Translations under genes and position numbers: made by a program
Notes under the pieces: generated by a model
The model's input: only the letters and a program-made list of their open reading frames with translations
The model's database searches: none
Told to the model about the DNA's origin: nothing
In this document: positions 5,282-39,324 of the stretch, piece after piece
How positions within the stretch are numbered: position 1 is the stretch's first letter
How the letters are laid out: every line of letters starts with the position of its first letter
From: a virus
Lineage: Duplodnaviria; Heunggongvirae; Uroviricota; Caudoviricetes
Virus record (IMG/VR): IMGVR_UViG_2703718821_000011
Reading direction: 5' to 3' (one strand)
Length of the DNA stretch: 39,324 nucleotides

Positions 5282-5307
5282 ATCCCTGAAACCTCGGTTT
5301 ACGGGAT
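5282..5307. other. gix-like crossover site (left), 26-bp imperfect palindrome ATCCCTGAAACCTCGGTTTACGGGAT
   Basis: Core AAACCTCGGTTTAC matches the Mu gix / Salmonella hix consensus as I recall it (TTCCTGTAAACCGAGGTTTTGGATAA, reverse complement). Confidence 0.6.
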
Positions 5308-5661: not shown

Positions 5662-5731
5662 TTAACGGGGGCATAGCACACAGCAGCCAGCATCTGAAAT
5701 ATGCGTTATTTCAGACAAGCATTGCCTGTAT

Positions 5732-6304
5732 ATGGCGATAGTATTATTCCTGTTTTTATCATTGATTTACATGGTGATGTTTATGCAACTGATTAATGTC
5801 AAACGATATTACCCGAAAGACAAACCCTATGGTGAGGATGTTCAGTATTTCCAGAGTGAGGACGGAAGGGATTTTTATGAATCTATCCCGCTTTTTACAA
5901 AGAAATACAAACTCTGTATTTCGCCTGTAACGGGTATTATCTGCTCTGTTGCTGAAGATGTCTCTGCTTTATATCCGGCAGGTTTTACTGTTGTTGAAGT
6001 GGACGAACTGCCGGAAGGTGTGAATATTGACGGTAACTGGCAGTTTTCTGATGGCCTGATATCAAAGGTGCCGGTAAACTGGAAGACGGTTGCTGAAAAG
6101 CGTCGCTCATCGCTGCTCCAGGAAGCCAACGAAACCGTGGATGACTGGAAAACAGAATTAAAACTGGACATGATTAGCGATGAAAATAAATTACAGCTGA
6201 CGCGCTGGATGGCGTATATCCGACAGCTTAAAGAAATGCACTTTAATGATATTGCCAGTGAGGGGCATTACCAGGCGATTCCCTGGCCGGAAAAACCGGA
6301 ATAA
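5732..6304 (+). CDS. Tail fibre assembly protein (U/U'-type chaperone), inside the invertible segment; likely true start near 5783
   Basis: Follows the silent fibre cassette on the same strand; C-terminus ...IPWPEKPE is typical of tail-fibre assembly proteins; position matches the Mu G-segment U/U' genes. Confidence 0.6.
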   Translation: MAIVLFLFLSLIYMVMFMQLINVKRYYPKDKPYGEDVQYFQSEDGRDFYESIPLFTKKYKLCISPVTGIICSVAEDVSALYPAGFTVVEVDELPEGVNIDGNWQFSDGLISKVPVNWKTVAEKRRSSLLQEANETVDDWKTELKLDMISDENKLQLTRWMAYIRQLKEMHFNDIASEGHYQAIPWPEKPE

Positions 6305-6338
6305 TTCAGAGGGTGCATTCAGCACCCTTTTCTGTGGT

Positions 6339-7250
6339 TTACACTGAACTTACCGTTCTCCAGGTATTATGAATATAAATCTGAACCGGGCGATAATAGA
6401 CCCCACCGATATTGTCCGCAGACCGGGAGCCGGTTTCCTGCACGTTAATACCGGAAAGCATACAACCGGAAGGTGCGCTGTAATTCCATGACATTTCATT
6501 GCCTCCGGGTGAATGATAGCTCTGTGCTCCAAGCTGAACATTCTGTACATACCGGCCATCTGCGGTTGACTGCGTCATTCCTGACGTGATGTTGATATCC
6601 AGCGTTCCGTCAAAAGGAACACCATTAATATTTCTTGGGGTGGCGAGTCTGTTTGCTGCCACGGCGGTTCCAGCCGATGGCAGGGCATCAGCAGCCTTAT
6701 TTACCGTTTCCCGTAAACCGAGGTTATCGATAAAGGTTCCTTTGTCCTGGATATCCGCGCCATTCTGGTCCCTGCGCAGGTAACGGTTATCACCTTCGCT
6801 CCTGCTGTAAACATCCAGATTATTACGGGCGGTTTCCGCATTCTCCAGGTCGGCAAGGTTCTGATCCTTCGCCAGGGCATTAACGTCAGCGGGACCAAGA
6901 CTGTTTTTTGTGGCAAGCGTCCCCAGACCAAGATAACCACGGGCCAGACGCTGGGCTTCCGCACCGGCATCAGCAATTTCTTTCAGGTTGTTTTTCCGGG
7001 AAAAGGCATTCGCAGCGATAATGGCTTTAATGGACAGCGTAAGCTGGTTTAACTGCGCCTTATCCGGCTGAATACTGGCTTCAGCCAGAATATTCAGCAG
7101 TTCGGCCTGGAGAATATTCAGCCAGTCCTGACCAATCCAGCTGATACCTTTTTGTCCGTCACCTTCGGTAAACCAGGTGGTGGTATTACTCTGCGCCGGA
7201 GCCAGTTCAGGCATATTCGCCACGCCGGAATTATTATCAACATGGAACAT
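6339..7250 (-). CDS. Tail fibre protein S (constant part plus currently expressed variable C-terminus)
   Basis: Continuous ORF that crosses the right gix-like site at the FIDNLGL codons; variable part lies inside the invertible segment; located between gp48 and the invertase, as in Mu. Confidence 0.7.
   Translation of the reverse strand: MFHVDNNSGVANMPELAPAQSNTTTWFTEGDGQKGISWIGQDWLNILQAELLNILAEASIQPDKAQLNQLTLSIKAIIAANAFSRKNNLKEIADAGAEAQRLARGYLGLGTLATKNSLGPADVNALAKDQNLADLENAETARNNLDVYSRSEGDNRYLRRDQNGADIQDKGTFIDNLGLRETVNKAADALPSAGTAVAANRLATPRNINGVPFDGTLDINITSGMTQSTADGRYVQNVQLGAQSYHSPGGNEMSWNYSAPSGCMLSGINVQETGSRSADNIGGVYYRPVQIYIHNTWRTVSSV
6708..6733. other. gix-like crossover site (right), TTCCCGTAAACCGAGGTTATCGATAA, inside the S coding sequence
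   Basis: About 21 of 26 positions match the Mu gixL sequence as I recall it; inverted relative to the left site. Confidence 0.6.
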
Positions 7251-7810
7251 TAAATATTCTCCTCTTTGTGACTGTTTGCATACACGTAAATAAACGTCTG
7301 CCATGCAGGCTTATAACGGTTCAGAATACATTCCAGCGCACCACCCTCATAAATACGCAGCGGGGTGAGAATATCATCCAGCACATTCATATTCCGGTAG
7401 CCGGTTTCACTGTTTATCGTGACAATACTGACCCACTGTGAATCCGGTGATGGCTGAATATCTATTTCATAACCAAACTCTGCCGCAAACCGGATATAAA
7501 ATTCACGGTTAAGAGAGGGTTTCATCCGGTATTTATTCCCTGCATAACGCTGACGTTCCTGAATGGTTGCGCCGGTCATATCACATTCCGGTAACCCCAG
7601 ATAACGCTCCCAGTCTTCCAGCAGCAGACGGGATGAATCAGGAAAACGTTCTGCCAGCATCTGGTTACCGGTCCAGGAAACACGCTCCGTGGAATGACTG
7701 AGGCCCAGGCACAAAGCCGCAAGAACGGATGACGGCCGCTTATCCCATGCCAGCCCGTCAGGCAGCAACTGCAACAGGGCGCGCTGATGCGGGGTCAGGG
7801 TTACAGCCAT
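7250..7810 (-). CDS. Mu gp48-like tail/baseplate protein
   Basis: 186-aa ORF between the baseplate J-like gene and the tail-fibre gene; Mu synteny. Confidence 0.6.
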   Translation of the reverse strand: MAVTLTPHQRALLQLLPDGLAWDKRPSSVLAALCLGLSHSTERVSWTGNQMLAERFPDSSRLLLEDWERYLGLPECDMTGATIQERQRYAGNKYRMKPSLNREFYIRFAAEFGYEIDIQPSPDSQWVSIVTINSETGYRNMNVLDDILTPLRIYEGGALECILNRYKPAWQTFIYVYANSHKEENI

Positions 7811-27915: not shown

Positions 27916-28027
27916 GCACGCCCCGGCAATCAGGGCCGGTAAGGCATTATTCACCGCAGCCACAGGACACCCCGTAACAGCAGTACCGCACACAGCAGCG
28001 CTATCATGAGCGGTCGCCAGAAGCGGT

Positions 28028-28528
28028 TCAGACTTTCGGCAAGTCGTAGCGACATAACCATTCATCCGCCGAACGGCGGGCCTCAAGGCCGGGGAGTTTC
28101 ACCCCCTTTGAATAAATCCAGCGGATATACTGCTTACAGGACGCGGGCATCTGCCCGGCATTGATCAGGCGCAGAAGCGTGGAGTTGCGGAAGTTCGTTT
28201 CACCGGCCCAGAAGATCCACGAAGCCAGCGCCACAGTCTGACCACGGGTAAGCGGCACCTGAACACGCCGATCAATGGCCGCAAAGGCCCATTTCATGTC
28301 CTTTTCCAGTAGTTCCAGGCATTCTTCATCCGTCAGGGTCATACCCGGTTTCACATCCGGGCCGGTATGGCCGTAACAGATGGTGGGTGTACCGGTGGGA
28401 TCGATATACGTGGAGTTTTCTTTCCCTTCCCAGTAACCGGTGTAATGCGTGGCAATCGTGAACGTCCCGGCACCGGCCAGAACAAGGGCAATCAGCTTTT
28501 TACGCAGTGGTGCGGGGAGTTTTGGCAT
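28028..28528 (-). CDS. lys: SAR endolysin, T4-lysozyme-like (glycoside hydrolase family 24)
   Basis: Gly/Ala-rich weakly hydrophobic N-terminal segment (LIALVLAGAGTFTIA) followed by YWEGKE...TICYGHTG lysozyme-type motifs. Confidence 0.8.
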   Translation of the reverse strand: MPKLPAPLRKKLIALVLAGAGTFTIATHYTGYWEGKENSTYIDPTGTPTICYGHTGPDVKPGMTLTDEECLELLEKDMKWAFAAIDRRVQVPLTRGQTVALASWIFWAGETNFRNSTLLRLINAGQMPASCKQYIRWIYSKGVKLPGLEARRSADEWLCRYDLPKV

Positions 28529-28599
28529 TGTTACGCTGTCTCATGATGTTCTCTGAGTCAGCGTAACGGTGAAGGAAAGGCGGCAGGCTTTGCGGAATA

Positions 28600-29025
28600 T
28601 CAGAAAAGTGGCGGTTGCGTTCTTGCCAGATGCAGACGGCGCTGTTCACGTATGACGGTATAAATCTGGGTTTCTGACATCCGGTAATGGCGGCGAAGGG
28701 ATTCAATTTTCTCGCCCCGGTCCCAGCGCGAAAATATCTCATTGTTTCGCAGCTCGGCAAAGAGAGATTCCCCGACCGGCAGGTAATAACCCCGTCCGCC
28801 CATATAGGCTGCCTGAGCCGCAGCCACCTTGCGTGCCAGTTTACCGGCCAGTACCGGCTCAATCCCCTGACGCTGAAGTTCTGCGCCGGTGACTTCAACC
28901 AGTTCTGACAGGGTCCGCGGCCAGTTCTTTTTGAGAACATCATCAGGGATGTCATCAAGGCGGTCGATAAGGGCGTGCAGTTGCTCACTGTCACCACCAA
29001 ACATGCTCATCTGAGTTTCTGCCAT
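28600..29025 (-). CDS. Mor/C-family transcriptional activator (middle/late gene activator)
   Basis: C-terminal ...RMSETQIYTVIREQRRL... resembles the Mor/C HTH region; sits immediately upstream of lys where Mu has C. Cannot tell whether this is the Mor or the C equivalent. Confidence 0.65.
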   Translation of the reverse strand: MAETQMSMFGGDSEQLHALIDRLDDIPDDVLKKNWPRTLSELVEVTGAELQRQGIEPVLAGKLARKVAAAQAAYMGGRGYYLPVGESLFAELRNNEIFSRWDRGEKIESLRRHYRMSETQIYTVIREQRRLHLARTQPPLF

Positions 29026-29058
29026 ATCAGCCTCCGGTTCTCACGTTCCCGGTAAGTT

Positions 29059-29088
29059 TAAAATAAAAATCCCGCGTTGTGGCGGGAT
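29059..29088 (-). terminator. Rho-independent terminator of the early operon (stem ATCCCGC...GCGGGAT followed by a U-rich tract on the minus-strand RNA)
   Basis: Hairpin immediately downstream of the gemA stop with UUUUUAUUUU on the transcribed strand; Mu has an early-transcript terminator just before the middle/late activator region. Confidence 0.6.
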
Positions 29089-29094
29089 TTGGGG

Positions 29095-29604
29095 TTAACG
29101 GGGAAGTGATTTTTCATACTGCCTGCAAACGGCGTCATACCCCATCAGCGTGCGTTCGGGCATTCCCATCGCGGCCAGCATTTTGCGGCGGTGCCATCGC
29201 TTGAGACGCTCCAGCACATCTGAGGCCAGGGCGGGGTGTTGCTCCAGCCACTGCCAGTTTGCCACACCTTCGCCGCCGTTCTGCGCGGCCGTCTGCGATT
29301 TCACCCAGCGGTTAAGGGCGGTTTCCGCACCATCGGTGATAAAGCCCTGCCGGAGCATCACCTTCCAGATGGCGCGAATTTTGGCGGTCACCGTACCCGG
29401 TTTTAAGGCCCGGTTAACCGGGTTCTGACGCACTTTAAAACCGCGTTTTTTGAAAACATCCAGCACGCGGGATAACTCATCCGGTGACATATCCCGGCAG
29501 CTGGTTTTGCCGGTGGCTGCCAGCAGCGCGGATGTATAAGTCTCATCATCCAGGGCAAGCTCGCGCTTTGCCACATGAATGGCGGATATCAGTTTTCCTC
29601 TCAT
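29095..29604 (-). CDS. gemA: GemA-like protein (Mu gp16 family)
   Basis: LISAIHVAKRELALDDETYTSALLAATGKTSCRDMSPDELSRVLDVFKKRGFK matches the GemA family pattern as I recall it. Confidence 0.65.
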   Translation of the reverse strand: MRGKLISAIHVAKRELALDDETYTSALLAATGKTSCRDMSPDELSRVLDVFKKRGFKVRQNPVNRALKPGTVTAKIRAIWKVMLRQGFITDGAETALNRWVKSQTAAQNGGEGVANWQWLEQHPALASDVLERLKRWHRRKMLAAMGMPERTLMGYDAVCRQYEKSLPR

Positions 29605-29897
29605 ACCGTATTTACCTTTTTACGGACATGGAAAGCCTTTTCTGCCTCATCCCACCGGGCATGGTGTGTTGGTGGAATAATCATTATGTGCCAGCCATCT
29701 CTGGTTGTTATCCGGCAGAAAAATTCACCGCTATATAACACAATGGCCTGCTGAATGAGCGCATCAGCCGCCCGTTCAACCGGATGTCTTTTATCAAAAA
29801 AGCAGATGATTTTTCGACATAACCACCGGGTAATAACAAATGCGCCGAAAAAGGATGTGATATATAAGCACCAGAACAACAGAGAACTATTGTCCAT
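29601..29897 (-). CDS. Hypothetical protein with N-terminal TM helix (early region, lower GC)
   Basis: 98-aa ORF, hydrophobic N-terminus LLFWCLYITSFFGAFVI; 4-nt overlap with gemA. Confidence 0.4.
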   Translation of the reverse strand: MDNSSLLFWCLYITSFFGAFVITRWLCRKIICFFDKRHPVERAADALIQQAIVLYSGEFFCRITTRDGWHIMIIPPTHHARWDEAEKAFHVRKKVNTV

Positions 29898-30084
29898 TAT
29901 CTTTCTCCTTATTCACTCTTCTGCGGCATTCGGCACAGTCATCAGGGCTTTCAAATGTATCCGGCTCGCGATTATGAGCCAGATATAACCACCGTCCACA
30001 TATACTGATATTTTCGCCTGTTTTAAAAAAATGATGCTTCCTGGCCATTAGTGGCCGCGCCCATCCAGCGGGTAGACTATTCAT
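29887..30084 (-). CDS. Hypothetical 65-aa protein with Cys-x-x-Cys pair (possible zinc ribbon)
   Basis: ORF in an operon-like overlapping arrangement; ...CGRW...CAEC.... Confidence 0.35.
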   Translation of the reverse strand: MNSLPAGWARPLMARKHHFFKTGENISICGRWLYLAHNREPDTFESPDDCAECRRRVNKEKDNGQ

Positions 30085-30412
30085 TTGCTTTATCCTCCAT
30101 GCTGGACAGAATCATATGTATTAATGTCGGGCGTGGAGATATACGCATTTCATTAAGCGTCTGAAGGGCAGCAACAGCTGCCTGTTTATCGGTGCCTTTG
30201 GCAATTTCAGCAAGAGAATGCACAATCCATAACGGGCTTAACGCTACGGCTGAATGCAGAATCATGTCATCCATAATAATTTCTGGCATATCCCGTTTGT
30301 CACATTCTTTATCCATAAAAGAAACGATTTTTTCTGCATCTTCCGGTTTCATGCCTCCGGCGATGAGAATTTTACGATATTCATAAGACGATCTTAATTC
30401 AATACTCATCAT
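30077..30412 (-). CDS. Hypothetical 111-aa early protein
   Basis: ORF with overlapping start/stop contexts; no recognised motif. Confidence 0.4.
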   Translation of the reverse strand: MMSIELRSSYEYRKILIAGGMKPEDAEKIVSFMDKECDKRDMPEIIMDDMILHSAVALSPLWIVHSLAEIAKGTDKQAAVAALQTLNEMRISPRPTLIHMILSSMEDKANE

Positions 30413-30424
30413 TCACCTGCCTGT

Positions 30425-30817
30425 TTAATCAGTTTCCAGTGCTTTGCTACGGGCAACAGCCTCACACTCAAAAAATACCGACTCCGGCACACGCTCCTTT
30501 AATTCACGAACAAGAAAATCATTAACGAGTTCATGACGTCTTATATTTCTTTCCTTTTCCTCCTGGCGCAATACAGCAAGGCGGTATTCAACAGTCCGGC
30601 GTTGTTTCTGAAAGACAGCTAGTGCTTTTCTGGCAGAGTTACGCCATGTATCATCGCCACAGGGTTCGTATTCAAGCTGAAATTTAATCTCTTCAATGGT
30701 TTCTTTTATTTTTGCCAGCAAGCTAAGACAGTCGCTGATTGTCTTCAGTTTTTCATTATCAATATAACTTCTCACGCATTCACCTCCCGTCATTCCGGTA
30801 AAGCTGAAATATGGCAC
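30425..30817 (-). CDS. Hypothetical coiled-coil early protein (start probably internal, near 30793)
   Basis: 130-aa ORF; K/E/R-rich helical sequence. Confidence 0.4.
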   Translation of the reverse strand: MPYFSFTGMTGGECVRSYIDNEKLKTISDCLSLLAKIKETIEEIKFQLEYEPCGDDTWRNSARKALAVFQKQRRTVEYRLAVLRQEEKERNIRRHELVNDFLVRELKERVPESVFFECEAVARSKALETD

Positions 30818-31101
30818 CAGTGCGTCACCTGTCCGTCCTCATCTTCAAGGCAGGCTCCGGTTTCTTCATCAATAAAAAAGCCTTCATACCCCATATGGCC
30901 GATGCGCAGTTCCTGTTGGTCACCATACTGAACAATCAGCACGACAGCCTCCATATCAGGCGGAAATGCGTCATCCAGTGAATGCCAGGGATAACCGCGC
31001 AAATCCCCGAAATAAACACCGGTCAGCGTTCCGCCACAAACCGACATTCCGGCGACACATACCAGAGGCTCGTCTGATTCAACAAATAATGTCGTTATCA
31101 T
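30790..31101 (-). CDS. Hypothetical acidic 103-aa early protein
   Basis: ORF with 4-nt overlap to the upstream gene; highly acidic. Confidence 0.4.
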   Translation of the reverse strand: MITTLFVESDEPLVCVAGMSVCGGTLTGVYFGDLRGYPWHSLDDAFPPDMEAVVLIVQYGDQQELRIGHMGYEGFFIDEETGACLEDEDGQVTHWCHISALPE

Positions 31102-31649
31102 GGCATTAACTCCCGTAATACAACATCTTCGGCAGTCCGGCGATGGTGATAAATAAAATTCACCGTACTCTCGGATAATTCAAATTTCTCGCCTATTTCC
31201 CGGAAGGTAAGACGTCGTGGTGATTCAGCATCCCGTAATTCACGAATAAGATGAACATCATCATCAGGTATACGGGTGAAGGGCAGCAACTCTCCGTATT
31301 TTTTCATGCTTACGCCAATATATCGCGCCCGTTTGTGGACAGAATCCCGGTCTCGCCCCAGATATTCTCCTATTTGCTTACCGGTCATCGTTCTGGCATT
31401 TTTTCGGATAAATTTATCTTCATCATGTTTAAATCTTGGACGTTTGCATTTGAGCAACTCCGGGTAAGTACCGCGTAATAAAACAATCCGGTTATGTACA
31501 CCCCAGAAACTTCTTTTTACCCTGACAGCAATATCCTTAACCGGGGTGGATGGATAAAGCGCAATCAGCAGTGCATCTTCTTCAGGTGTCCACGCACGGA
31601 CATGAGCGGGTGCACGGCCTTTTCGCCCCATGGGTTGTAAAATCATCAT
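31098..31649 (-). CDS. Putative DNA-binding regulator with up to three HTH-like segments
   Basis: WTPEEDALLIALY (Myb/SANT-like), TGKQIGEYLGRDRDSVHKRARYIG, and LTFREIGEKFELSESTVNFIYHHRR (sigma-70 region 4/LuxR-like). Confidence 0.45.
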   Translation of the reverse strand: MMILQPMGRKGRAPAHVRAWTPEEDALLIALYPSTPVKDIAVRVKRSFWGVHNRIVLLRGTYPELLKCKRPRFKHDEDKFIRKNARTMTGKQIGEYLGRDRDSVHKRARYIGVSMKKYGELLPFTRIPDDDVHLIRELRDAESPRRLTFREIGEKFELSESTVNFIYHHRRTAEDVVLRELMP

Positions 31650-31652
31650 ACA

Positions 31653-32168
31653 TCACCCCCTGACTCGCTTTTCAGCAGCATAAAACTCATCAGACAGAAT
31701 TTCGGTCATTTTCTGTTTTGCGGGTTTTACGCCGCACTGAAGGTAAATCACATCGTCAACGCAGAACCACTCCACAGGGCCAAACAGGATTGCCGAGAAA
31801 TCAATACCCAGCCAGAACAACAGGGCATCGGTTCTGGCATACGTGACGGGCGAATATTCACGCCACAGACTGTTAAGTTCGTCAGAGGCAGCGCACAGGG
31901 CTTTGGGAATACACGATGTGCGCGGCGTGCAGCTCCAGCCATTCGACGCAGTCGGTTTTCGCCATAAGTCGCGATGAAAAGGATATTTGTTATCCGTAAA
32001 ACGCAGTCCTTTAAAATAAAAACCATTGATACCGGATACAAATACCGACCGACAATCAACATTCAGCACGGCCTCAAGACGTTTTGCCTCATCCTTAACT
32101 TTCTTGTAGTCCTGCTGGTATTTTTGCCACGCAGCCAGCGCGGAAGGGTTTGATGTTTTAAAGAACAT
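31653..32168 (-). CDS. Hypothetical 171-aa early protein
   Basis: ORF in the early operon; no recognised motif. Confidence 0.45.
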   Translation of the reverse strand: MFFKTSNPSALAAWQKYQQDYKKVKDEAKRLEAVLNVDCRSVFVSGINGFYFKGLRFTDNKYPFHRDLWRKPTASNGWSCTPRTSCIPKALCAASDELNSLWREYSPVTYARTDALLFWLGIDFSAILFGPVEWFCVDDVIYLQCGVKPAKQKMTEILSDEFYAAEKRVRG

Positions 32169-32701
32169 TACGCCACCTCCGCAGATATCCCGGCAGGCGC
32201 AGCCGTCCGGTCAACAATCAGGTAACGCAGAACATGTTCGGTGATATTCCAGCCGCTTAAACCGCAGATAATGACACCCAGGCGAATGTCGATATACGCC
32301 ATCACAAACTGGGGCACGCCTTCTTTCATGGCCTGCTCATCAACTTCAGCCACCACATAAACGGTTTCGCAGGTCAGTACGCCCTGAGCAAATTCCCACG
32401 CCATCGACGGAATATCATGCCCCTCAATCCACGGCAGGGATTTTCTGAAGCTGCACCACTGAACATCATCAGCCGCACCTTCCTGGCTGCATTTGCGACG
32501 AACCGGCTGCACCGGGCGGGGACGCGGAATATCATAAAAACCGTTACATTCCGTCAGCACCCCGGCATCGACCGCATCACGCAGAAAATAAACCATCGAG
32601 GATGGCGGCATATTCATTTTTTCAGCCAGAATGCCGCAGGTCAGACGCCCGTAAATACTCAGCCAGTTTTTAACCCCTTCAAGCACTTTTGCATCAATCA
32701 T
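32168..32701 (-). CDS. Hypothetical 177-aa early protein (N-terminal winged-helix-like segment)
   Basis: ORF in the early operon; no recognised catalytic motif. Confidence 0.45.
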   Translation of the reverse strand: MIDAKVLEGVKNWLSIYGRLTCGILAEKMNMPPSSMVYFLRDAVDAGVLTECNGFYDIPRPRPVQPVRRKCSQEGAADDVQWCSFRKSLPWIEGHDIPSMAWEFAQGVLTCETVYVVAEVDEQAMKEGVPQFVMAYIDIRLGVIICGLSGWNITEHVLRYLIVDRTAAPAGISAEVA

Positions 32702-32704
32702 GAA

Positions 32705-33247
32705 TTATTCCTCCGTCAGCGCCACATATTCAGAATGTTTAATTTCCTGGCATTCTTCAGGAATACACCCTTTTATTTCCCTGCCATAAGCGCCTACTTT
32801 AAACACCACGCACAGGGCATCACGGGAGAGCGACGGGGTCCACCAGGAGTCCGTGTTAAACATGGAGGGGATTCTCATTACCCCCAGCTTTTCACAGAGC
32901 CAGACAAGGAAATCAGGACGCTTTCTTAACTCACGTTCAGCGGTTTCAATCATTGCGGCAATCGCCGGACCTTCAGGGCATGACTCATCAGGTCTGGCAA
33001 TAAAGCACGGTCCGTCCCCGATAAAAGCCACATCATCGCGCTTACGCCAGCCCGCAGGCAGAGCACCAGAAAAATAAAACTCACTGATTACGTCCATGGC
33101 AAACGGCTTTAAGCGCAATCCGGCAGCGCCTGTATTTTTCAGTAATGCCCGAAGAATACTGTTGCGTAGCGGTAAAACAGTCTGTTGATATTTGGTGAAA
33201 TATTTATTTGTCTGCACACGGTCTAATTTGAAATAAAAATATGCCAT
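32705..33247 (-). CDS. Hypothetical 180-aa early protein
   Basis: ORF directly downstream of gam with an AAGGAACAGG RBS. Confidence 0.45.
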   Translation of the reverse strand: MAYFYFKLDRVQTNKYFTKYQQTVLPLRNSILRALLKNTGAAGLRLKPFAMDVISEFYFSGALPAGWRKRDDVAFIGDGPCFIARPDESCPEGPAIAAMIETAERELRKRPDFLVWLCEKLGVMRIPSMFNTDSWWTPSLSRDALCVVFKVGAYGREIKGCIPEECQEIKHSEYVALTEE

Positions 33248-33344
33248 ATATCCTGTTCCTTATTTTCAGTTTACAGGCGCAGGCAGTCCCCTGACGCGAG
33301 CGCCATAATTAAAACGAAGTGATATTTAATTGATTAATGCGGTG

Positions 33345-33875
33345 TTATTTATTCAGTCCGGCGTCCTGTTCAAAAGGCTCGACATAAAAACTTTCAGCGC
33401 CTTTATTCACCTTAATACCGGCAATCCCTTTCACCGCATCCGGCTCCGCCAGGACCGCTTCCTTGTTCACTTCCTCTTTCGTGCGGATAAAACGCTCAAG
33501 GCCCATACGGCGCAGCATTTCAATCACACCTTCCACATCACGACTGACGCTGCATGATGGATTCCCCAGTCGCCATGACACCGTTCCGGTGGTCAGATTG
33601 GCTGTTTTGGTTTTGCCGCCGTTCGTCAGCTCATCGCGGTTGGTTTTGCACCAGTCCTGAATCCCCTTAAAAAGCACTTTGATTTCTTTTTTAAGGTTTT
33701 CAATTTGCGGCGTATAACGGGCGGTGATTTCTGCCACTTCATCATTCATCGCCGTTTCCAGCCGCAGCGCCTCTCGCTGAATATCGCCCAGGGTGCGGAT
33801 ATCGCGGCTGACTTCTTCGCGGGTCTGCGGTGCAGCCTCGGCTGCGGCCTTTAATTTTGTAACACGTTTAGCCAT
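33345..33875 (-). CDS. gam: Gam, Ku-like DNA-end-binding host-nuclease inhibitor
   Basis: 176 aa; ...LGDIQREALRLETAMNDEVAEITARY...DELTNGGKTKTANLTTGTVSWR... closely matches Mu Gam as I recall it. Confidence 0.8.
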   Translation of the reverse strand: MAKRVTKLKAAAEAAPQTREEVSRDIRTLGDIQREALRLETAMNDEVAEITARYTPQIENLKKEIKVLFKGIQDWCKTNRDELTNGGKTKTANLTTGTVSWRLGNPSCSVSRDVEGVIEMLRRMGLERFIRTKEEVNKEAVLAEPDAVKGIAGIKVNKGAESFYVEPFEQDAGLNK

Positions 33876-33886
33876 TTTGTTTTTCC

Positions 33887-34180
33887 TTATTGCAGTGTGC
33901 CTGATGCTTTATGCACGCGGTGGCGTTTAATGATGGCATCCGCCCCAAAAGCCTGTACAGATGCCTGAAATTCCGCTGAGAGAAACTGAATAATTACAGG
34001 ACTGTGATACTGGAGAATGCTTGCATAAACGTCACAGAGTGACGTCGGCCTGTTATCCGTATCACGTTCTGTTTTCACATCCACTCCAATCTTTTCATGC
34101 ACTTCAACACTGTCATTGCCTGCCGGTTTTTCGTCATGCGAAACATGCTCAAATTCAAAAATAACGCGTACTTTGCTCAT
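33887..34180 (-). CDS. Small early protein, paralogous at its N-terminus to the upstream gene
   Basis: Begins MSKVRVIFEFEH...; the upstream neighbour begins MSKVVRIIFEYKEH...; remainder unrelated. Confidence 0.45.
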   Translation of the reverse strand: MSKVRVIFEFEHVSHDEKPAGNDSVEVHEKIGVDVKTERDTDNRPTSLCDVYASILQYHSPVIIQFLSAEFQASVQAFGADAIIKRHRVHKASGTLQ

Positions 34181-34184
34181 GGAA

Positions 34185-34457
34185 TTACCCCTGCTGATTA
34201 AATTCATTACCTTTAATAACCCCGGAACTCATGTTCATATCTTTCATGAGCGCTCTGGCTTTCATTGCCACAAGTTCAGCAAAGTCTCTGCTTTCCGCGA
34301 GCATAACCACTCCAAAAATCATGGCGGGTCCATCACCTTTCTGCTTTATCCCGGTTGAACGTATGTCCAGACTTACCCCCATGCGCACTGTTCCATCAGC
34401 GTTTTTATGGATAACGTGCTCCTTGTATTCGAAAATAATGCGTACGACTTTACTCAT
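34185..34457 (-). CDS. Small early protein (90 aa)
   Basis: ORF in the semi-essential early region. Confidence 0.45.
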   Translation of the reverse strand: MSKVVRIIFEYKEHVIHKNADGTVRMGVSLDIRSTGIKQKGDGPAMIFGVVMLAESRDFAELVAMKARALMKDMNMSSGVIKGNEFNQQG

Positions 34458-34735
34458 CCTCTGGTCCTCGTTCTGTTTGGATAACTGACCCGGCGTCTGA
34501 CCTCACGGCAGAACCGAATCATGGCATTAAAGGCTTCTTCCTCCGTCACCGCTTCCGGTATCCCCGGAACCAGTAACTGCTCCTGTTCATCACGTCCATG
34601 ACGCGCCATAACCTCAATCACATGCCGTACCGTGGCAGGCTTTCCGGCAACTATCGGCAATGCACCTTCCGGCAGGACGTAACCAAACTCAATAAGACCA
34701 CTCGACCACGCCCATGCAATGAGATTTTTTTTCAC
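34454..34735 (-). CDS. Small early protein (93 aa)
   Basis: ORF with 4-nt overlap to the downstream gene. Confidence 0.4.
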   Translation of the reverse strand: MKKNLIAWAWSSGLIEFGYVLPEGALPIVAGKPATVRHVIEVMARHGRDEQEQLLVPGIPEAVTEEEAFNAMIRFCREVRRRVSYPNRTRTRG

Positions 34736-34736
34736 C

Positions 34737-35003
34737 TCACACCTCCCAGTAAACCGTGCAGCCGCTGATGCGGGTGGCCTTCACACGGCGGCGCAGGCCG
34801 TTGGTCTGTATGGTGATTTCAATTTCACCGGTTCCCTGCACGTTGCCTACCGGCGGCGTGGTTTTCAGTGCAAAACGTTGTGGGTAGCGCTTACTGCGTT
34901 CCAGTACCGCACCGGCAAGTTCGGTCAGACGGCGCGCGCTGTTCAGGGAGTCGAATAAATTCATTTTGTTACCGCAGGATTGCATATTCATATAACACCT
35001 CAT
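34737..35003 (-). CDS. Small early protein (88 aa; start may be internal)
   Basis: ORF in the early operon. Confidence 0.4.
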   Translation of the reverse strand: MRCYMNMQSCGNKMNLFDSLNSARRLTELAGAVLERSKRYPQRFALKTTPPVGNVQGTGEIEITIQTNGLRRRVKATRISGCTVYWEV

Positions 35004-35231
35004 TTAGCTGACTTGTTTCGCACCAACAGAACGGCATATTCCGCTGTAAACTTCTGTCGCACCTTCGCGATCAAGTCCGGCAGATATCACCATTCGTGTG
35101 CGGTCATTAAATTCAAAAAGTAAATCGCCACATTCTTTATTTTCGGCCAGTGAAATCACCTTCACGTTATCGAAATTAACCAGGTAAAAGCGTCCGTAAA
35201 TATCAGGAATATAAAATACCGCCATAATCAC
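35004..35231 (-). CDS. Small early protein in the Mu kil position (75 aa)
   Basis: First ORF downstream of B, overlapping its stop; positional analogy to Mu kil only. Confidence 0.35.
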   Translation of the reverse strand: MIMAVFYIPDIYGRFYLVNFDNVKVISLAENKECGDLLFEFNDRTRMVISAGLDREGATEVYSGICRSVGAKQVS

Positions 35232-36160
35232 ACCTGTGAGAGTAATTCAGGGTTGGTATAAACCTCTTTAAAGGCCGCATTAATATGTTTTTCTGTCAGC
35301 GCCGCACCTTCACCGCTGGCGGTGAGCCACGCCTGGTTAAGCGTATGTGTCAGAACGCGTAACGCTCCCGGCTTTTCAGCGATAGCCTGCATGACGGCCA
35401 GCTCGGCCTCACCACTGATACCCCATGCCCTGGCAATGGCCAGCACATCCGCCTTTTTGGCCTTGCGAAGTTGTTTTGTACGGGCAAGACGGCTGAACAG
35501 GCGCGATAAATCATCAAAGGCGCGGCGTCCACCTTTAAACAATCCGCGCGGGTTACCAATAAGCACCATCCCGATCCCCGTGGCGTCCTGAATTGCCCGG
35601 AGTTGCTCCAGACCGTCAATACCAAGATGATCCGCCTCATCCACAATCACCAGTCCACGCGTTCCCATCAGGCGACGGCGGATGGCGCGGGATAATGCCC
35701 CTTTGTTCGCGCGGGTGTAATCAATCCCCAGCGCATCGGCCAGCTCCAGCAGACACTCCGTGACGCTGGAGTGCGCGGGTGACAGGGTGATCATCCAGGT
35801 GTTTGGTTGCTCCTGGCAGTAATTACGGGCAGTGGCCGTTTTACCCACACCCGGTACGCCCACAATAACGTTAATACAGCCCATCAGACGAACCGCCTGA
35901 AACAGTGCGCGCAGCTCCTGGACTGTCTGCGTTTCCACAAACTGCGGCGGTTCCGGCAGTGCGCTTTGTTTATTCCAGTTCTCATACCAGGAACGCAGGG
36001 AAGCAGCCACAGCAGCGTTATCGCCTTTATATTTTCCCTTACGGAAAGCCGATAATGTGCCGTCGGAAATTCCCGCCTCTCTGGCGATGGCATACTGCGT
36101 CAGTACGCCGCCATCAATAAGTTCATCAATGGTCTTGATTACATCGTTAATATCAGTCAT
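35228..36160 (-). CDS. B: MuB-like AAA+ ATPase, transposition target-DNA activator
   Basis: 310 aa; Walker A GVPGVGKT, Walker B LVIVDEADHL; directly downstream of the transposase gene. Confidence 0.8.
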   Translation of the reverse strand: MTDINDVIKTIDELIDGGVLTQYAIAREAGISDGTLSAFRKGKYKGDNAAVAASLRSWYENWNKQSALPEPPQFVETQTVQELRALFQAVRLMGCINVIVGVPGVGKTATARNYCQEQPNTWMITLSPAHSSVTECLLELADALGIDYTRANKGALSRAIRRRLMGTRGLVIVDEADHLGIDGLEQLRAIQDATGIGMVLIGNPRGLFKGGRRAFDDLSRLFSRLARTKQLRKAKKADVLAIARAWGISGEAELAVMQAIAEKPGALRVLTHTLNQAWLTASGEGAALTEKHINAAFKEVYTNPELLSQV

Positions 36161-36231
36161 ATTATTAACCTCTCATTTGATACCTTGTTTAATCAAATAA
36201 CCTGAGTCGCCGCTCGGGTTATTTTTTTATT

Positions 36232-38322
36232 TCAGGCCAGCGGGTCATTTTCTTTTAATTTCGCTTCCAGCAACTGCAATCCCCGCTGGAAATTACGCTC
36301 GTATTCTTCATCAGGTTCATCGTCAGCGACCGGTTGCTGAACGATCACCGCATTACCCACAGGGCGATAGATGTTTTCCAGCCATGGCTCCTGCTGCTTG
36401 TGCTCCAGCACGTTGACCACCTCATCCTCGGCATCACGGATTTTTTCCTCTGCGCGTTTACGCATGCCTTTAAGGCGTTGCTGCTGTTTGTAGTATTCCG
36501 CGCTGACCGGGAAGGCTTCGCGTTTATTGCCGCCCCATACCGCCTCGCAAATCACGCTGCCATCCAGGCGACGTACGGTAATTCGTTCGGCATCATGAAT
36601 GTCATAGCTGATAAGCACCTTGCGGCCATGCTCATCACGCAGCTCGGGAGCGTAGTAAATATTATTCAGCCAGCGTATTTCACAGCGTCTTACAGGGCGT
36701 TCCACCATCGGCCGGAACATATCCCGCAGCTCAACATCGGACAGCCATTCAATTTCCGTGTCCTCTTCCGCCAGGCGTTTTTTTCTGAACTCCGCCGGGC
36801 TGTAATGCTTGCCGTTCGGTTTTATGGGTAATTCATCGTGCGGCCGGTTGTTGTACCACTCAACACCATCACGAATGGCATCAATCAGTTCAGCCCAGGA
36901 CGGTAAATCACGCATCGCTGACTGCTGCCGGGCGTTCAGCCGTTTGCCCTGTTGCAGGGCACTGAATGCCGAGCGTAAATCGCGGTTGGTTTTACGTAAC
37001 GTCTCGCGATCTGCACCTTTCCCGAAATAGGTGCGGTATTTACGGGCTATGCGCATCGGTAATGTGCGGTTAAGCCGTTCGATAATGCCCCGTCCCTGCG
37101 GGTTACCGGCAATCCCTGTCGGGTGATTAATCCCCAGTCGCGGCAGAATCCCCACAACTTCCTTATCCAGGATGTCGGCGGTTTCCCCGGAACCGTTATC
37201 CGAGTAATACAGAAACGGTTTGCCGTGATTACGAATACCGTGCTGTATGGCACCGGCTACGGCGAAAACATTTTCAGCCAGGTCAAGGCTCCAGCCCACC
37301 ACAAAGCGCGTGCCACCGTCGATAACAAAGGTCACTTCCGGTGCAAATGGCCGCCCGTGAACCGGGTGCCTGCATTTCAGCTTCATGCCGTGACCGTCAC
37401 CAATCCAGACATAATTCACCGGCATTTTTGACCAGTCGCGGCGCGTGAATCCCTCAAGCTGGCGATATTCACTGCCGGTCACCCGGCCTTTTTGTTTCAC
37501 CACTTCCGGCAGTTTCTTCATTGCGCGGCGAATGGTGTCATAAGACGGCATGATATCGAGCATATAAGGCTCATCAGCGTGCCGGTGCTGCCATTCAGCG
37601 ACAAAATCCTCGTAGGCCTCGGTCATTGGTCGGCCGTTTGACTGGCGATACTGCGCCAGAAATTCGGGCAGCCAGTTAATATCTTCGGCTTTTATTTCCT
37701 GGCGCTTACCCGGTGCCAGCAAAAGCAGGCGTTCGGCGGCGTTCTGCGCCTTGTTAAAGGCTGCAATCCAGCGTTTCAGCGTGATTTCACTCAACGCACG
37801 GCTGTTTCCCTTTTTGGCGTTCGCCGTCTCAACCATTGCCACAATGCGCTCGTCCAGCTGCGAACGTGCCAGGTTGTCAACGATAAACCGGATAGCTTTC
37901 GCACAGCTGAAACCGGGTTGTTGCGCGACTTTCATCACTTCGCTGACGATCGCGATTCGTGCATCAGCCACCTGGCGCTGGTTTTCAGTCAGGGCATTAA
38001 GGCGTTCAACCATCAGTTGTGGTGATCCGCGATATGCCTCCACCGCATCAACCACGGCAGGCGAGCGTCTGGCCTTTGTCACCACCGGAGCCGGTGATTC
38101 ATCGGCTTTTTGCGTCATCAGTTGCAGGGCGTAGCGTTCACGTAATGCCTGCTGCGTCACTTCAGGTAAACAGTCGATACTGTATTCAGTTGCTTTAGAG
38201 CCTGAGCGACGACGGGAACAACAGCTTTTCCCTTGTACGTAACGTTGTAATGCCTGGCGAATACCTTTTGTTGTAGCAGGCATTCCGGGCGCGCCAATCA
38301 GTTCTTTTGCAATGACATACAT
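36232..38322 (-). CDS. A: MuA-family DDE transposase
   Basis: 696 aa; candidate DDE residues in WIGDGH, YYSDNGSGE and GRGIIER contexts; sits between ner and B. Confidence 0.8.
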   Translation of the reverse strand: MYVIAKELIGAPGMPATTKGIRQALQRYVQGKSCCSRRRSGSKATEYSIDCLPEVTQQALRERYALQLMTQKADESPAPVVTKARRSPAVVDAVEAYRGSPQLMVERLNALTENQRQVADARIAIVSEVMKVAQQPGFSCAKAIRFIVDNLARSQLDERIVAMVETANAKKGNSRALSEITLKRWIAAFNKAQNAAERLLLLAPGKRQEIKAEDINWLPEFLAQYRQSNGRPMTEAYEDFVAEWQHRHADEPYMLDIMPSYDTIRRAMKKLPEVVKQKGRVTGSEYRQLEGFTRRDWSKMPVNYVWIGDGHGMKLKCRHPVHGRPFAPEVTFVIDGGTRFVVGWSLDLAENVFAVAGAIQHGIRNHGKPFLYYSDNGSGETADILDKEVVGILPRLGINHPTGIAGNPQGRGIIERLNRTLPMRIARKYRTYFGKGADRETLRKTNRDLRSAFSALQQGKRLNARQQSAMRDLPSWAELIDAIRDGVEWYNNRPHDELPIKPNGKHYSPAEFRKKRLAEEDTEIEWLSDVELRDMFRPMVERPVRRCEIRWLNNIYYAPELRDEHGRKVLISYDIHDAERITVRRLDGSVICEAVWGGNKREAFPVSAEYYKQQQRLKGMRKRAEEKIRDAEDEVVNVLEHKQQEPWLENIYRPVGNAVIVQQPVADDEPDEEYERNFQRGLQLLEAKLKENDPLA

Positions 38323-38323
38323 A

Positions 38324-38572
38324 TCATGACGCCTTTCTCATATAGCTCTTAACCTGGTATCGACTGGGCCAGATTTCTTCAGGCGATACCCCAAGAGCAT
38401 CAGCAATTATTTGCTGATACGGTCGGCAAGGAGTACGTAATACGCTTTTCAGCGAATCCCTGCTGTAACCAGCCTTTAAAGATAAAGAGCGCAGTGATAA
38501 GCCAGCCATGTGTAAGCGCGCCTTGATGATTTCAGGCGGCCAATCGTGATCTGAAACTTCTCTTCTACTCAT
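38324..38572 (-). CDS. ner: Ner-like DNA-binding regulator (Ner/Nlp family)
   Basis: ...QQIIADALGVSPEEIWPSRYQ matches the Mu Ner C-terminal motif (EQIIANALETKPEVIWPSRYQ); GAGGAAG RBS upstream. Confidence 0.8.
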   Translation of the reverse strand: MSRREVSDHDWPPEIIKARLHMAGLSLRSLSLKAGYSRDSLKSVLRTPCRPYQQIIADALGVSPEEIWPSRYQVKSYMRKAS

Positions 38573-38739
38573 ACTTCCTCTATTCTAAAAAGTTACCCGC
38601 GCGGATATTCGTGCGGATATCTGTACGGGTAAATAATAGAACAAACAAAAGAACCAGATCAAGGTATTTTGTTCTTTTTATTCTTTGTAGTGTTTTTGTT
38701 ATTAATATCAATAAGATAAATACAAAGGAACCTGAGAGC
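38573..38739. promoter_or_regulatory. Divergent early/repressor promoter-operator region between ner and c
   Basis: TTACCCG...CGGGTAA inverted repeat (~38593-38632) enclosing two GCGGATAT direct repeats; second inverted repeat AAAAGAAC...GTTCTTTT (~38648-38678); AT-rich. Confidence 0.5.
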
Positions 38740-39324
38740 ATGAACATGAAAAACAGTTCTTTTCTCGACGAAGGAAAAGAACCAGTGATCGAACGGATTT
38801 TTCGTCTTGCAGAGCGTTACAAATCGAGAAGTGAGGCGGCTAGAGCATGGGGAATAAACGTTCAGACATTGCAGAACTACTACAAAAGGAGAAACAATCA
38901 GCCGCCACCACAACCAAGAAAGCACCATCTCCAGAACATTGCAGAAAGAGAACATGTATCTATGGAGTGGCTAGTCCATGGTTATGGTGATGAGCCAAGC
39001 ATGAAAAAAGAACCAATTGAACAAGCAAAAAGAACAAAAAAACAAAGAATTGATGATAGTGATTCCATCATCATGAGGGCGTGGGACTCGCTAACTTCAT
39101 CTGAACAAGAGATTTTGTCCAACTTATTGATCAGAAAAGGGGCCGAACTACTAACCGTTTTGCTTGATACAGATATTCAAAAACTGCACTCATTGAGCGG
39201 AGTCAAAAGAGCACTAGCATTGAGTCTACAAGAGTTACCCGATGATACTGTAAGAGAGATTTATGAAGAATGTGAAGCTAAGGTTAATCATTTAAATGTA
39301 ACCCAGAAAAAGGCTAGTGCGTAA
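38740..39324 (+). CDS. c: Mu c-type lysogeny repressor
   Basis: Divergent from ner; C-terminal ...LLIRKGAELLTVLL...QKLHSLSGV...LPDDTVREIY resembles the Mu repressor C-terminal region; AAGGA RBS before the ATG at 38740. Stop codon is the last triplet of the window. Confidence 0.65.
   Translation: MNMKNSSFLDEGKEPVIERIFRLAERYKSRSEAARAWGINVQTLQNYYKRRNNQPPPQPRKHHLQNIAEREHVSMEWLVHGYGDEPSMKKEPIEQAKRTKKQRIDDSDSIIMRAWDSLTSSEQEILSNLLIRKGAELLTVLLDTDIQKLHSLSGVKRALALSLQELPDDTVREIYEECEAKVNHLNVTQKKASA

What the first reader, a model, noticed from the sequence alone, without database searches (positions are those of the whole stretch)
29601..33247. Expanded early region: nine ORFs between gam and gemA where Mu has about four
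Mu has four small genes between gam and gemA as I recall; this prophage has nine tightly packed ORFs. The block from about 29.6 to 31.6 kb is visibly AT-richer (three sampled 60-bp lines at 30061, 30241 and 30301 are each ~43% GC, against ~60% for a sampled tail-gene line). Mu-family early regions are where host-takeover and anti-defence functions sit, so these are candidates for anti-restriction, anti-defence or superinfection-exclusion genes.
Basis: partly seen in the sequence, partly recalled or inferred. Interest (0 to 1): 0.6.

Follow-up and report, generated by a model that had tools for sequence, protein, structure and literature searches.

The report
Mosaic accessory genes in Mu-like prophage
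Between the gam and gemA genes of an E. coli Mu-like prophage sit nine real, tightly packed early genes: three conserved ones plus swappable cassettes of unknown function. This is an ordinary phage "accessory region" and a reasonable but unproven place to look for anti-defence genes.

Summary
There are nine minus-strand ORFs between gam (33345-33875) and gemA (29095-29604). RefSeq annotates the same nine. Each has a Shine-Dalgarno site, spacing runs from an 11-nt overlap to a 14-nt gap, and dN/dS is 0.1-0.3. Mu has five genes here, not four, in 1.9 kb against 3.74 kb. In 16 other Mu-like prophages I counted 2-6 ORFs in this interval, and its length in about 20 was 0.05-2.9 kb. The o4-o9 block is 44.8% GC against 57.0% for the late region.

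The block is the distal part of the early operon. The only strong terminator follows gemA.

- **Backbone:** o2 is a Mu gp11 homologue (68% identity), o3 a Mu gp12 homologue (54%), and o4 a lineage-specific tandem-HTH DNA-binding protein.
- **Cassettes:** o1 (divergent DUF5420, same slot as SfMu gp11), o5, o6, o7-o8 and o9 are gained, lost or allele-swapped among relatives, with breakpoints at or within about 20 nt of gene boundaries.
- **Counterparts:** five ORFs (o4, o5, o6, o8, o9) have none in Mu, D108 or SfMu.

No ORF matches a known anti-defence or defence family. The o1 model is confident (pLDDT 90) and has no relative among solved structures. Anti-defence remains a plausible hypothesis. 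Prophage-expressed superinfection exclusion is disfavoured. The block occurs in 233 of 5426 complete E. coli genomes, so interest is modest.

The parts
33345..33875 (-). gam (Mu Gam / Ku-like DNA-end-binding host-nuclease inhibitor); upstream boundary of the block
   Evidence: PHROG 491, E 3.5e-70. 57% identity to Mu Gam.
32705..33247 (-). o1, 180 aa: divergent DUF5420-family protein occupying a variable 'slot' directly after gam
   Evidence: 38% identity to a Salmonella protein that NCBI names 'DUF5420'. 23-24% identity to the 190-aa allele in the same slot (L036:4373-4942), which scores 52.6 bits on PF17457. SfMu gp11 in the same slot is annotated DUF5420. In relatives the slot holds o1, the alternative allele, or nothing. 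AF2 model pLDDT 89.8. No PDB relative.
32168..32701 (-). o2, 177 aa: Mu gp11 homologue (backbone gene)
   Evidence: 68% identity to Mu gp11. Pfam Gp11_C PF25754 at 139 bits. PHROG 1949. Present in every related locus that covers this position.
31653..32168 (-). o3, 171 aa: Mu gp12 homologue (backbone gene)
   Evidence: 54% identity to Mu gp12. PHROG 2314. Newer PGAP records name it 'Mu-Gp12 family protein'.
31098..31649 (-). o4, 183 aa, pI 10: tandem SANT/Myb- or homeodomain-like HTH DNA-binding protein. Core to this prophage lineage, absent from Mu.
   Evidence: Sub-threshold Pfam HTH hits. PHROG 323 'transcriptional regulator', E 6e-58. Profile hit to the two-HTH protein 2lvs_A at E 2.8e-4, and weak hits to the Mos1 transposase and Myb. 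PGAP names include 'SANT/Myb-like DNA-binding domain-containing protein'. 35% full-length homologue in the early operon of a P2-like Citrobacter phage.
30790..31101 (-). o5, 103 aa: very acidic (pI 4.05, net -17) cassette protein
   Evidence: The family is confined to E. coli and Salmonella: 14 representatives among 1.84 billion. Weak DUF551 hit below threshold (13 bits against 22). AF2 model unreliable (pLDDT 52). Absent from type-B relatives.
30425..30775 (-). o6, 116 aa (GTG start at 30775; the mechanical ORF extends to 30817): cassette protein
   Evidence: PHROG 6158, with the match starting at residue 15 of the long ORF. PGAP start. About 40% homologues in lambdoid phage Fraca (beside xis/int) and Aeromonas phage AsXd-1.
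30077..30412 (-). o7, 110-111 aa: cassette protein, homologue of SfMu gp14
   Evidence: PHROG 1988. 34% identity to SfMu gp14 and to Yersinia Mu-like phages. dN/dS 0.19.
29887..30084 (-). o8, 65 aa: small Cys/His-containing protein; a zinc-ribbon fold is my inference from the sequence. Travels with o7.
   Evidence: PHROG 2358. Homologues in 197 phage records, mostly PB1-like Pseudomonas phages and some coliphages.
29601..29897 (-). o9, 98 aa: small protein with an N-terminal hydrophobic segment (residues 5-23); its stop overlaps the gemA start
   Evidence: Maximum Kyte-Doolittle score 1.82 over residues 5-23. PHROG 17269. No isolate-phage homologue outside the Mu-like insert in the Stx2c-converting phage record LC727881. 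A 51%-identity allele keeps residues 1-29 nearly identical.
29095..29604 (-). gemA; downstream boundary of the block
   Evidence: Pfam GemA, E 3.9e-29. 44% identity to Mu GemA.
29067..29090 (-). Predicted intrinsic terminator ending the early transcription unit
   Evidence: 9-bp stem with 5 GC pairs, followed by TTATTTT.

Best explanation
The block is the distal half of the early (Pe-type) operon of an E. coli Mu-like transposable prophage. It is a mosaic accessory-gene region.

It has a conserved backbone and a set of exchangeable cassettes:
- Backbone: gam, o2 (gp11), o3 (gp12), o4 (tandem-HTH DNA-binding protein) and gemA.
- Cassettes: o1 (DUF5420 slot), o5, o6, o7-o8 and o9. This window carries the fullest known set.

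Shown by the data: the nine are real genes, packed closely enough for coupled translation and under purifying selection. They are co-directional with the transposition genes and have no excess internal promoter-like or terminator-like sites. Relatives differ by whole-gene gain, loss or allele replacement.

Inferred: all nine are made in the first minutes of lytic growth together with A, B and Gam, and are silent in the lysogen. The basic HTH protein o4, and possibly o2 and o3, bind DNA and assist or regulate phage DNA transactions. The exchangeable cassettes are host-interference, counter-defence or inter-phage-competition factors. Their turnover would then reflect an arms race. The candidates are the DUF5420 protein next to Gam, the acidic o5 and the membrane-anchored o9.
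For: - **Identity and layout:** gam, gemA, A, B, ner and repressor are in Mu order. PGAP calls the same nine CDS.
- **Operon structure:** SD sites and spacing from an 11-nt overlap to a 14-nt gap. Promoter-like and terminator-like sites are no more frequent than in shuffled sequence, and one strong terminator follows gemA.
- **Real genes:** dN/dS is 0.1-0.3 for all nine.
- **Mosaic structure:** 22 IMG/VR loci show architectures that lack o1, o5-o6 or o6-o8. Others replace o1 or o9 by alleles of 23% and 51% identity, or carry Mu gp13/gp14-like genes instead of o6-o9. Breakpoints fall at or within about 20 nt of gene boundaries.
- **Composition:** low GC in o4-o9.
- **Horizontal spread:** cassette homologues lie in early or accessory regions of unrelated phages, namely P2-like, lambdoid beside xis/int, and PB1-like.
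- **Same slot elsewhere:** in other Mu-like prophages it is equally variable. It carries HU, DciA, a SutA-type RNAP-binding domain, MazG-like and YfbR-like nucleotide hydrolases and a DNA methyltransferase.
- **Precedent:** Mu early gene E6/Mup07 is the host-envelope modifier 'gnarl2' (bioRxiv 10.1101/2023.04.06.535777). Gam itself is an anti-RecBCD protein (PMC12407980).
Against: - No ORF matches any characterised anti-defence, defence or host-takeover family.
- The confident o1 structure has no informative structural neighbour.
- The o5 model is unreliable, so its acidity is the only DNA-mimic-like feature.
- Turnover, low GC and small size are also expected for neutral or weakly beneficial cargo.
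- Timing and co-transcription are inferred from sequence and from Mu biology. They were not measured here.
- No anti-defence HMM library (dbAPIS, AntiDefenseFinder) was available.
Confidence: 0.6

Rival explanations
1. The extra genes are auxiliary factors for the phage's own DNA transactions and gene regulation, not anti-defence genes. That would cover transposition and replication efficiency (as with Mu 'arm'), nucleoid remodelling, and the early-to-late switch.
For: - o4 is a basic tandem-HTH DNA-binding protein conserved throughout the lineage.
- o2 and o3 are conserved with Mu.
- The same slot in other Mu-like prophages carries HU, DciA, a SutA RNAP-binding domain and nucleotide hydrolases.
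- This prophage has only one Mor/C-type activator, so an extra early regulator is conceivable.
Against: It does not explain why o1 and o5-o9 are dispensable in many otherwise near-identical relatives, or why some are replaced by highly divergent alleles. Core replication helpers are usually conserved.
Confidence: 0.25
2. The genes are prophage 'morons' expressed in the lysogen. They protect the host by superinfection exclusion or another defence.
For: - o9, and the 61-aa two-TM peptide that replaces o5-o6 in relatives, are small membrane proteins. This is a common form for exclusion factors.
- Some relatives and SfMu carry a reverse-strand ORF just upstream of gemA that could have its own promoter.
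Against: - In this window all nine ORFs are on the early-operon strand.
- There is no excess of promoter-like sites and no internal strong terminator.
- They lie downstream of A and B, which in Mu are repressed by the c repressor in lysogens.
- There are no meaningful PADLOC hits.
Confidence: 0.1
3. The ORFs are non-functional remnants or annotation artefacts in a decaying prophage.
For: All nine lack an assigned function and carry 'hypothetical', 'uncharacterized' or generic names in public records. IS elements interrupt the interval in some genomes.
Against: - dN/dS is 0.1-0.3 for every ORF.
- Reading frames are intact and SD sites present.
- Every ORF matches a PHROG family at E <= 2.2e-32.
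- The block is conserved in 233 complete E. coli genomes.
- The AF2 fold for o1 is confident.
Confidence: 0.02

Closest known systems
Phage Mu semi-essential early region (gam to gemA: gp11, gp12, gp13, gp14, gp15/Mu_54)
   Same: - Same position and strand in the early operon, between homologous gam (57% identity) and gemA (44%).
- gp11 (68%) and gp12 (54%) homologues in the same order.
- Small, tightly packed genes of unknown function.
   Different: - Twice as long: 3.74 kb against 1.9 kb, and nine genes against five.
- Mu gp13, gp14 and gp15 are absent and replaced by o5-o9.
- o1 is inserted after gam and o4 after gp12.
- GC is lower.
Shigella phage SfMu early region (gp11 DUF5420, gp12, gp13, gp14, gp15, gp16)
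   Same: It has a DUF5420 gene in the slot right after gam, as o1 is here. It also has an o7 homologue (gp14, 34% identity). Its interval is already expanded to 2.76 kb.
   Different: - SfMu lacks o4, o5, o6, o8 and o9 (o5 family).
- It has no Mu gp12 homologue according to its description (PMC4406740).
- It keeps Mu gp13 and gp14.
- It has a reverse-strand gene before gemA.
Phage 'accessory regions' / diversity hotspots (Silas et al., bioRxiv 10.1101/2023.04.06.535777; hotspot survey, bioRxiv 10.1101/2024.10.15.618418)
   Same: Variable small genes lie between conserved core genes in closely related phages. They show frequent horizontal transfer and divergent alleles, and the slot sits next to a known counter-defence gene (Gam).
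   Different: In those studies some member genes have demonstrated counter-defence phenotypes. None of the nine ORFs here has been tested, and none resembles a characterised member.
Sp18-type Mu-like prophage of EHEC O157:H7 Sakai
   Same: Mu-like prophages with this block at 95-100% identity occur in many O157:H7, O111, O103 and other E. coli genomes. The literature describes Sp18 as the Mu-like prophage of strain Sakai (PMC2669165; PMC13502914).
   Different: I did not align the window to the Sakai Sp18 sequence itself, so identity with Sp18 is an inference from strain types.

Membership tests
Mu-type early operon, gam-gemA interval | Flanked by Gam and GemA homologues, on the same strand, downstream of ner, A and B | tested here: met
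Mu-type early operon, gam-gemA interval | Contains gp11 and gp12 homologues in Mu order | tested here: met
   o2 is 68% identical to gp11 and carries Gp11_C at 139 bits. o3 is 54% identical to gp12.
Mu-type early operon, gam-gemA interval | One-to-one gene content with Mu (gp13, gp14, gp15 present; nothing extra) | tested here: not met
   No gp13, gp14 or Mu_54 homologue in the window. o1 and o4-o9 have no Mu match.
Mu-type early operon, gam-gemA interval | Transcribed as part of the early transcript, repressed in lysogens | not testable with these tools
   Sequence evidence only: no excess promoter-like sites, and a terminator after gemA.
DUF5420 (PF17457), for o1 | Scores above the Pfam gathering threshold (26 bits) | tested here: not met
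   o1 gives no Pfam hit even at E <= 10. Its 38%-identity relative P0133 scores 15 bits. The alternative allele L036:4373-4942 scores 52.6 bits.
DUF5420 (PF17457), for o1 | Full-length homology to bona fide members, with shared conserved motifs | tested here: met
   tblastn aligns o1 to the L036 allele over its full length at 23-24% identity. The eight-sequence alignment A3 (o1-type proteins, P0133, the L036 allele and SfMu gp11) has the invariant pattern I-K-H-S-E-x-x-A-x-x-E-E at the C-terminus. The profile search recovers about 70 PF17457-positive proteins. o1 is best described as a divergent subfamily.
Gp11_C (PF25754), for o2 | Scores above the gathering threshold | tested here: met
   139.2 bits against a cutoff of 27.
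SANT/Myb- or homeodomain-like HTH DNA-binding proteins, for o4 | Significant match to an HTH domain model or structure | tested here: inconclusive
   Pfam HTH hits are all below gathering (best 22.6 bits against 27). The profile against PDB hits 2lvs_A at E 2.8e-4 over two repeats, with weak Mos1 and Myb hits. PHROG 323 'transcriptional regulator' at E 6e-58. PGAP names it SANT/Myb-like.
DUF551 (PF04448), for o5 | Scores above the gathering threshold (22 bits) | tested here: not met
   13 bits, E 0.2.
Known anti-defence proteins (Ocr, ArdA, Acr, Gad, Tad, Acb and others) | Sequence or structural similarity to a characterised member | tested here: inconclusive
   No PHROG, Pfam or NCBIfam family with such an annotation. 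No PDB sequence hit for the ORFs queried: o1, o2, o4, o5 and o7. The o1 fold has no PDB neighbour. No dedicated anti-defence library was available. Only o1 gave a usable model; the o5 model was unreliable and the other seven were not modelled.
Known anti-phage defence systems (PADLOC) | Match to a defence-system protein model | tested here: not met
   Only two weak hits: o4 to the DNA-binding part of 'HEase' at E 0.0017, and o7 at E 0.035.
Phage accessory region / diversity hotspot | Variable gene content between conserved flanking core genes among closely related genomes | tested here: met
   At least six architectures among 22 related loci, with breakpoints at or within about 20 nt of gene boundaries. 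Coverage classes among 233 E. coli genomes.

The most novel reading that the evidence does not exclude
One or more of the exchangeable cassettes is a new anti-defence protein with no relative among characterised inhibitors. The leading candidates are two. The first is the DUF5420 protein o1, which sits directly after the anti-RecBCD gene gam, exists as at least three highly divergent allele classes, and has a confident fold with no relative among solved structures. The second is the strongly acidic near-orphan o5. Either might block a nuclease-type or DNA-end-sensing defence that Mu-like phages provoke.
Probability: 0.3. Interest if true: 0.6.

Novelty: new member of a known kind. Interest (0 to 1): 0.35.

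Why it matters
Transposable Mu-like prophages are common in pathogenic E. coli: this block is in 233 of 5426 complete genomes, many of them STEC. Their early "semi-essential" genes are almost entirely uncharacterised.

This analysis separates a conserved backbone (gp11, gp12 and a tandem-HTH protein) from five independently exchangeable cassettes. That gives a short, ranked list for experiments, led by o1/DUF5420, o5 and o9. If any of these proves to be a counter-defence or host-takeover factor, it would add a new family and help explain how Mu-like phages cope with defences that sense DNA ends or Gam.

If none does, the region is simply another phage accessory hotspot.

Tried and rejected
- **Paralogy of o1 and o3:** I suspected o1 (DUF5420) and o3 (gp12) were paralogues, from similar N-terminal and C-terminal motifs. 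BLASTP gave E 0.049 and hhalign gave probability 0.5%, E 0.12. Not supported.
- **o5 as a DUF551 protein or DNA mimic:** the Pfam hit is below threshold and the AF2 model is unreliable (pLDDT 52). The exhaustive representative search found only 14 relatives. Two long repeat proteins among them were uninformative.
- **Solved-structure searches:** single sequences of o1, o2, o4 and o7, and profiles for o1, o5 and gp11, found nothing significant.
- **NCBIfam and PADLOC:** no meaningful hits.
- **Rfam:** nothing in 28000-39324.
- **Literature:** searches for the nine RefSeq accessions, DUF5420 and Gp11_C returned no papers.
- **Cluster names:** all 'hypothetical protein', 'uncharacterized protein' or generic labels such as 'AsnC family protein' and 'Mu prophage protein'.

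Full report
**What the window is.** The window is a Mu-like transposable prophage of Escherichia coli, read on the minus strand. From high to low coordinates it carries:
- a repressor (38611-39324, plus strand), ner, and transposase A (36232-38322);
- B (35228-36160), then five small ORFs;
- gam (33345-33875), then the nine ORFs of the finding;
- gemA (29095-29604), one Mor/C-family activator, a lysozyme and the late genes.

Gam and GemA are confirmed by PHROG 491 (E 3.5e-70) and Pfam GemA (E 3.9e-29). The 5-kb stretch around the finding is 100% identical to several E. coli chromosomes. It occurs in 233 of 5426 complete E. coli genomes, many of them O157:H7, O111 and O103 strains. In one such genome the prophage interrupts lsrC.

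**Checking the observation.** Nine minus-strand ORFs fill the 3.74 kb between gam and gemA. PGAP annotates the same nine CDS. Each is preceded by a Shine-Dalgarno-like motif. Neighbours range from an 11-nt overlap to a 14-nt gap, and o9 overlaps the gemA start by 4 nt.

Where divergent alleles exist in related loci, Nei-Gojobori dN/dS is 0.1-0.3 for every ORF. That matches gam (0.03-0.13) and gemA (0.11-0.20), so these are genes under purifying selection.

About 20 other Mu-like prophages, recovered from one genome per species with a Gam profile, have intervals of 0.05-2.9 kb. The 16 in which I counted ORFs have 2-6. SfMu has 2.76 kb. The window therefore has the longest and most gene-rich version I saw.

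The AT-richness is real. The o4-o9 block is 44.8% GC, o1-o3 is 49.6%, and the late region is 57.0%.

**Anatomy.** tblastn against Mu shows that o2 is the gp11 homologue (68% identity; Pfam Gp11_C at 139 bits) and o3 the gp12 homologue (54%). The other seven have no Mu match.
- **o1** is a divergent member of DUF5420. It is 38% identical to Salmonella proteins that NCBI names DUF5420. It is 23-24% identical, over its full length, to a 190-aa allele in the same slot that scores 52.6 bits on PF17457. Across the eight-sequence alignment of o1-type proteins, P0133, that allele and SfMu gp11, the C-terminal pattern I-K-H-S-E-x-x-A-x-x-E-E is invariant. SfMu gp11, directly after gam, is also DUF5420.
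- **o7** is 34% identical to SfMu gp14.
- **o4** is a basic protein (pI 10) built of tandem SANT/Myb- or homeodomain-like helix-turn-helix repeats. The evidence is sub-threshold Pfam HTH hits, PHROG 323, a profile hit to the two-HTH protein 2lvs_A at E 2.8e-4, and PGAP naming. Its nearest isolate-phage relative lies in the early operon of a P2-like Citrobacter phage.
- **o5** is extremely acidic (pI 4.05, net charge -17) and nearly an orphan. Only 14 representatives exist among 1.84 billion proteins, and the relatives with source names are all from E. coli or Salmonella.
- **o6** has about 40% homologues beside xis/int in a lambdoid phage and in an Aeromonas phage.
- **o8** is a small Cys/His protein with homologues in 197 phage records, mostly PB1-like Pseudomonas phages.
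- **o9** has an N-terminal hydrophobic segment. It has no isolate-phage homologue outside the Mu-like insert in an Stx2c-converting phage record.

**Operon structure.** Promoter-like and terminator-like sites in 28.5-34.5 kb are no more frequent than in shuffled sequence. The one strong intrinsic terminator on the coding strand (29090..29067) lies just after gemA. No Rfam family matches. The nine ORFs therefore read as the distal part of the early transcription unit that starts upstream of ner, A and B. That they are expressed early in lytic growth and silent in the lysogen is inferred from Mu biology. It was not measured.

**Mosaic evolution.** Twenty-two IMG/VR loci of the same lineage show at least six architectures:
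- all nine ORFs, as in the window;
- o5-o6 replaced by a 61-aa two-TM peptide;
- o1 replaced by the canonical DUF5420 allele, with o6-o9 replaced by Mu gp13-like and gp14-like genes plus a reverse-strand ORF;
- o6-o8 deleted;
- o1 absent;
- o9 replaced by a 51%-identity allele whose first 29 residues are nearly identical.

Nucleotide alignments put every breakpoint at or within about 20 nt of a gene boundary. o2, o3 and o4 are present in every locus that covers them. These loci were found by searching with o4, but the whole-region search of E. coli genomes also shows o2-o4 in nearly all 234 records. In an evenly spaced sample of that ranking, about a third of rows cover the full nine-gene form. 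IS insertions occur in some genomes.

So the expansion relative to Mu has three parts. A DUF5420 gene is added, as in SfMu. A lineage-core HTH gene is added. Mu's gp13-gp15 are replaced by five larger cassettes.

**Attempts to assign function.** Pfam, NCBIfam, PHROGs and PADLOC give no functional assignment beyond those above. Public names are all "hypothetical", "uncharacterized" or generic. The nine accessions, DUF5420 and Gp11_C appear in no paper in the searchable library.

**Guilt by position.** I scanned the ORFs in the same slot of 16 other Mu-like prophages, together with the variant cassettes. They are mostly unknown. The recognisable ones include an HU-type protein, DciA, a SutA RNAP-binding domain, MazG-like and YfbR-like nucleotide hydrolases and one DNA methyltransferase. 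This is heterogeneous cargo centred on DNA and host takeover.

For precedent, Silas et al. report that Mu early gene E6/Mup07 is "gnarl2", a host-envelope modifier found in their screen of phage accessory genes (bioRxiv 10.1101/2023.04.06.535777). Mu-type Gam blocks RecBCD loading at DNA ends and, with GemA, licenses Gabija targeting in Pseudomonas (PMC12407980).

**Interpretation.** The best-supported reading is an early-operon accessory region with a conserved backbone and exchangeable cassettes. The backbone proteins o4, and possibly o2 and o3, most likely bind DNA and assist or regulate phage DNA transactions. The cassettes most likely interfere with the host or with competitors.

The anti-defence reading is plausible on the accessory-region signature and the neighbourhood, but no direct evidence supports it. 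A purely housekeeping or regulatory role is the main rival. Prophage-expressed exclusion is disfavoured by the operon layout. Non-functional ORFs are excluded by the selection analysis.

**Verdict.** The block is a new member of a known kind, a phage accessory hotspot in the Mu semi-essential early region. It is already present, unnamed, in hundreds of public genomes. Interest is modest (0.35). The most novel reading still open is that o1/DUF5420 or o5 is a new anti-defence protein (probability about 0.3).

Noticed in passing
window 28600-29090 (minus strand): Only one Mor/C-family activator (28600-29025) lies between gemA and the lysozyme. It is closer to Mu C (39% identity) than to Mor (27%). 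It follows a strong intrinsic terminator at 29090..29067. Mu's middle-operon genes gp18-gp20 and a separate C gene are absent, which suggests a simpler regulatory cascade than in Mu.
   Followed up: partly
window 33887-35231 (minus strand): The five small ORFs between B and gam have no homologues of Mu gp6-gp9, including the gnarl2 gene E6. There is only a weak Kil-like match for the 88-aa ORF at 34737-35003 (E 0.002). Their alleles differ by 45-81% identity among close relatives, so the B-gam interval is a second mosaic accessory region.
   Followed up: partly
window 437-7810: The far end of the prophage carries a Mom homologue (437-1174, Pfam Mom at 259 bits) and a Gin-like invertase (4667-5227). 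Between them lie a 669-aa protein with a SASA carbohydrate-esterase domain plus DUF6645 (2558-4567) and an unassigned 153-aa plus-strand ORF (1861-2322). These are possible surface-polysaccharide or receptor-modifying cargo.
   Followed up: no
window 1-444: The mechanical ORF at the window edge has an aminotransferase class-III C-terminus. It is probably host flank next to the mom end of the prophage. The insertion site was not compared with the lsrC insertion seen in strain CFSAN027343.
   Followed up: no
L028:6549-6734; L036:7287-7526 (minus); L048:3188-3454 (minus): Relatives carry cassettes that this window lacks. One is a 61-aa two-TM peptide in place of o5-o6. Another, in type-C relatives and in SfMu (gp16), is a reverse-strand ORF immediately upstream of gemA, which could be expressed independently of the early operon.
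   Followed up: partly
window 29601-29897 compared with L028:7285-7575: The two o9 alleles are nearly identical over residues 1-29, the hydrophobic segment, but only about 51% identical overall. The cause is either a recombination junction inside the gene or a conserved anchor carrying a diversifying soluble domain.
   Followed up: partly
E. coli genomes NZ_AP042554 (H124) and NZ_CP021339 (H127): IS3-family elements (IS600, IS1203) are inserted inside the gam-gemA interval in some strains. One copy of the block lies on a 167-kb record counted as a plasmid (NZ_CP074995, H147).
   Followed up: no
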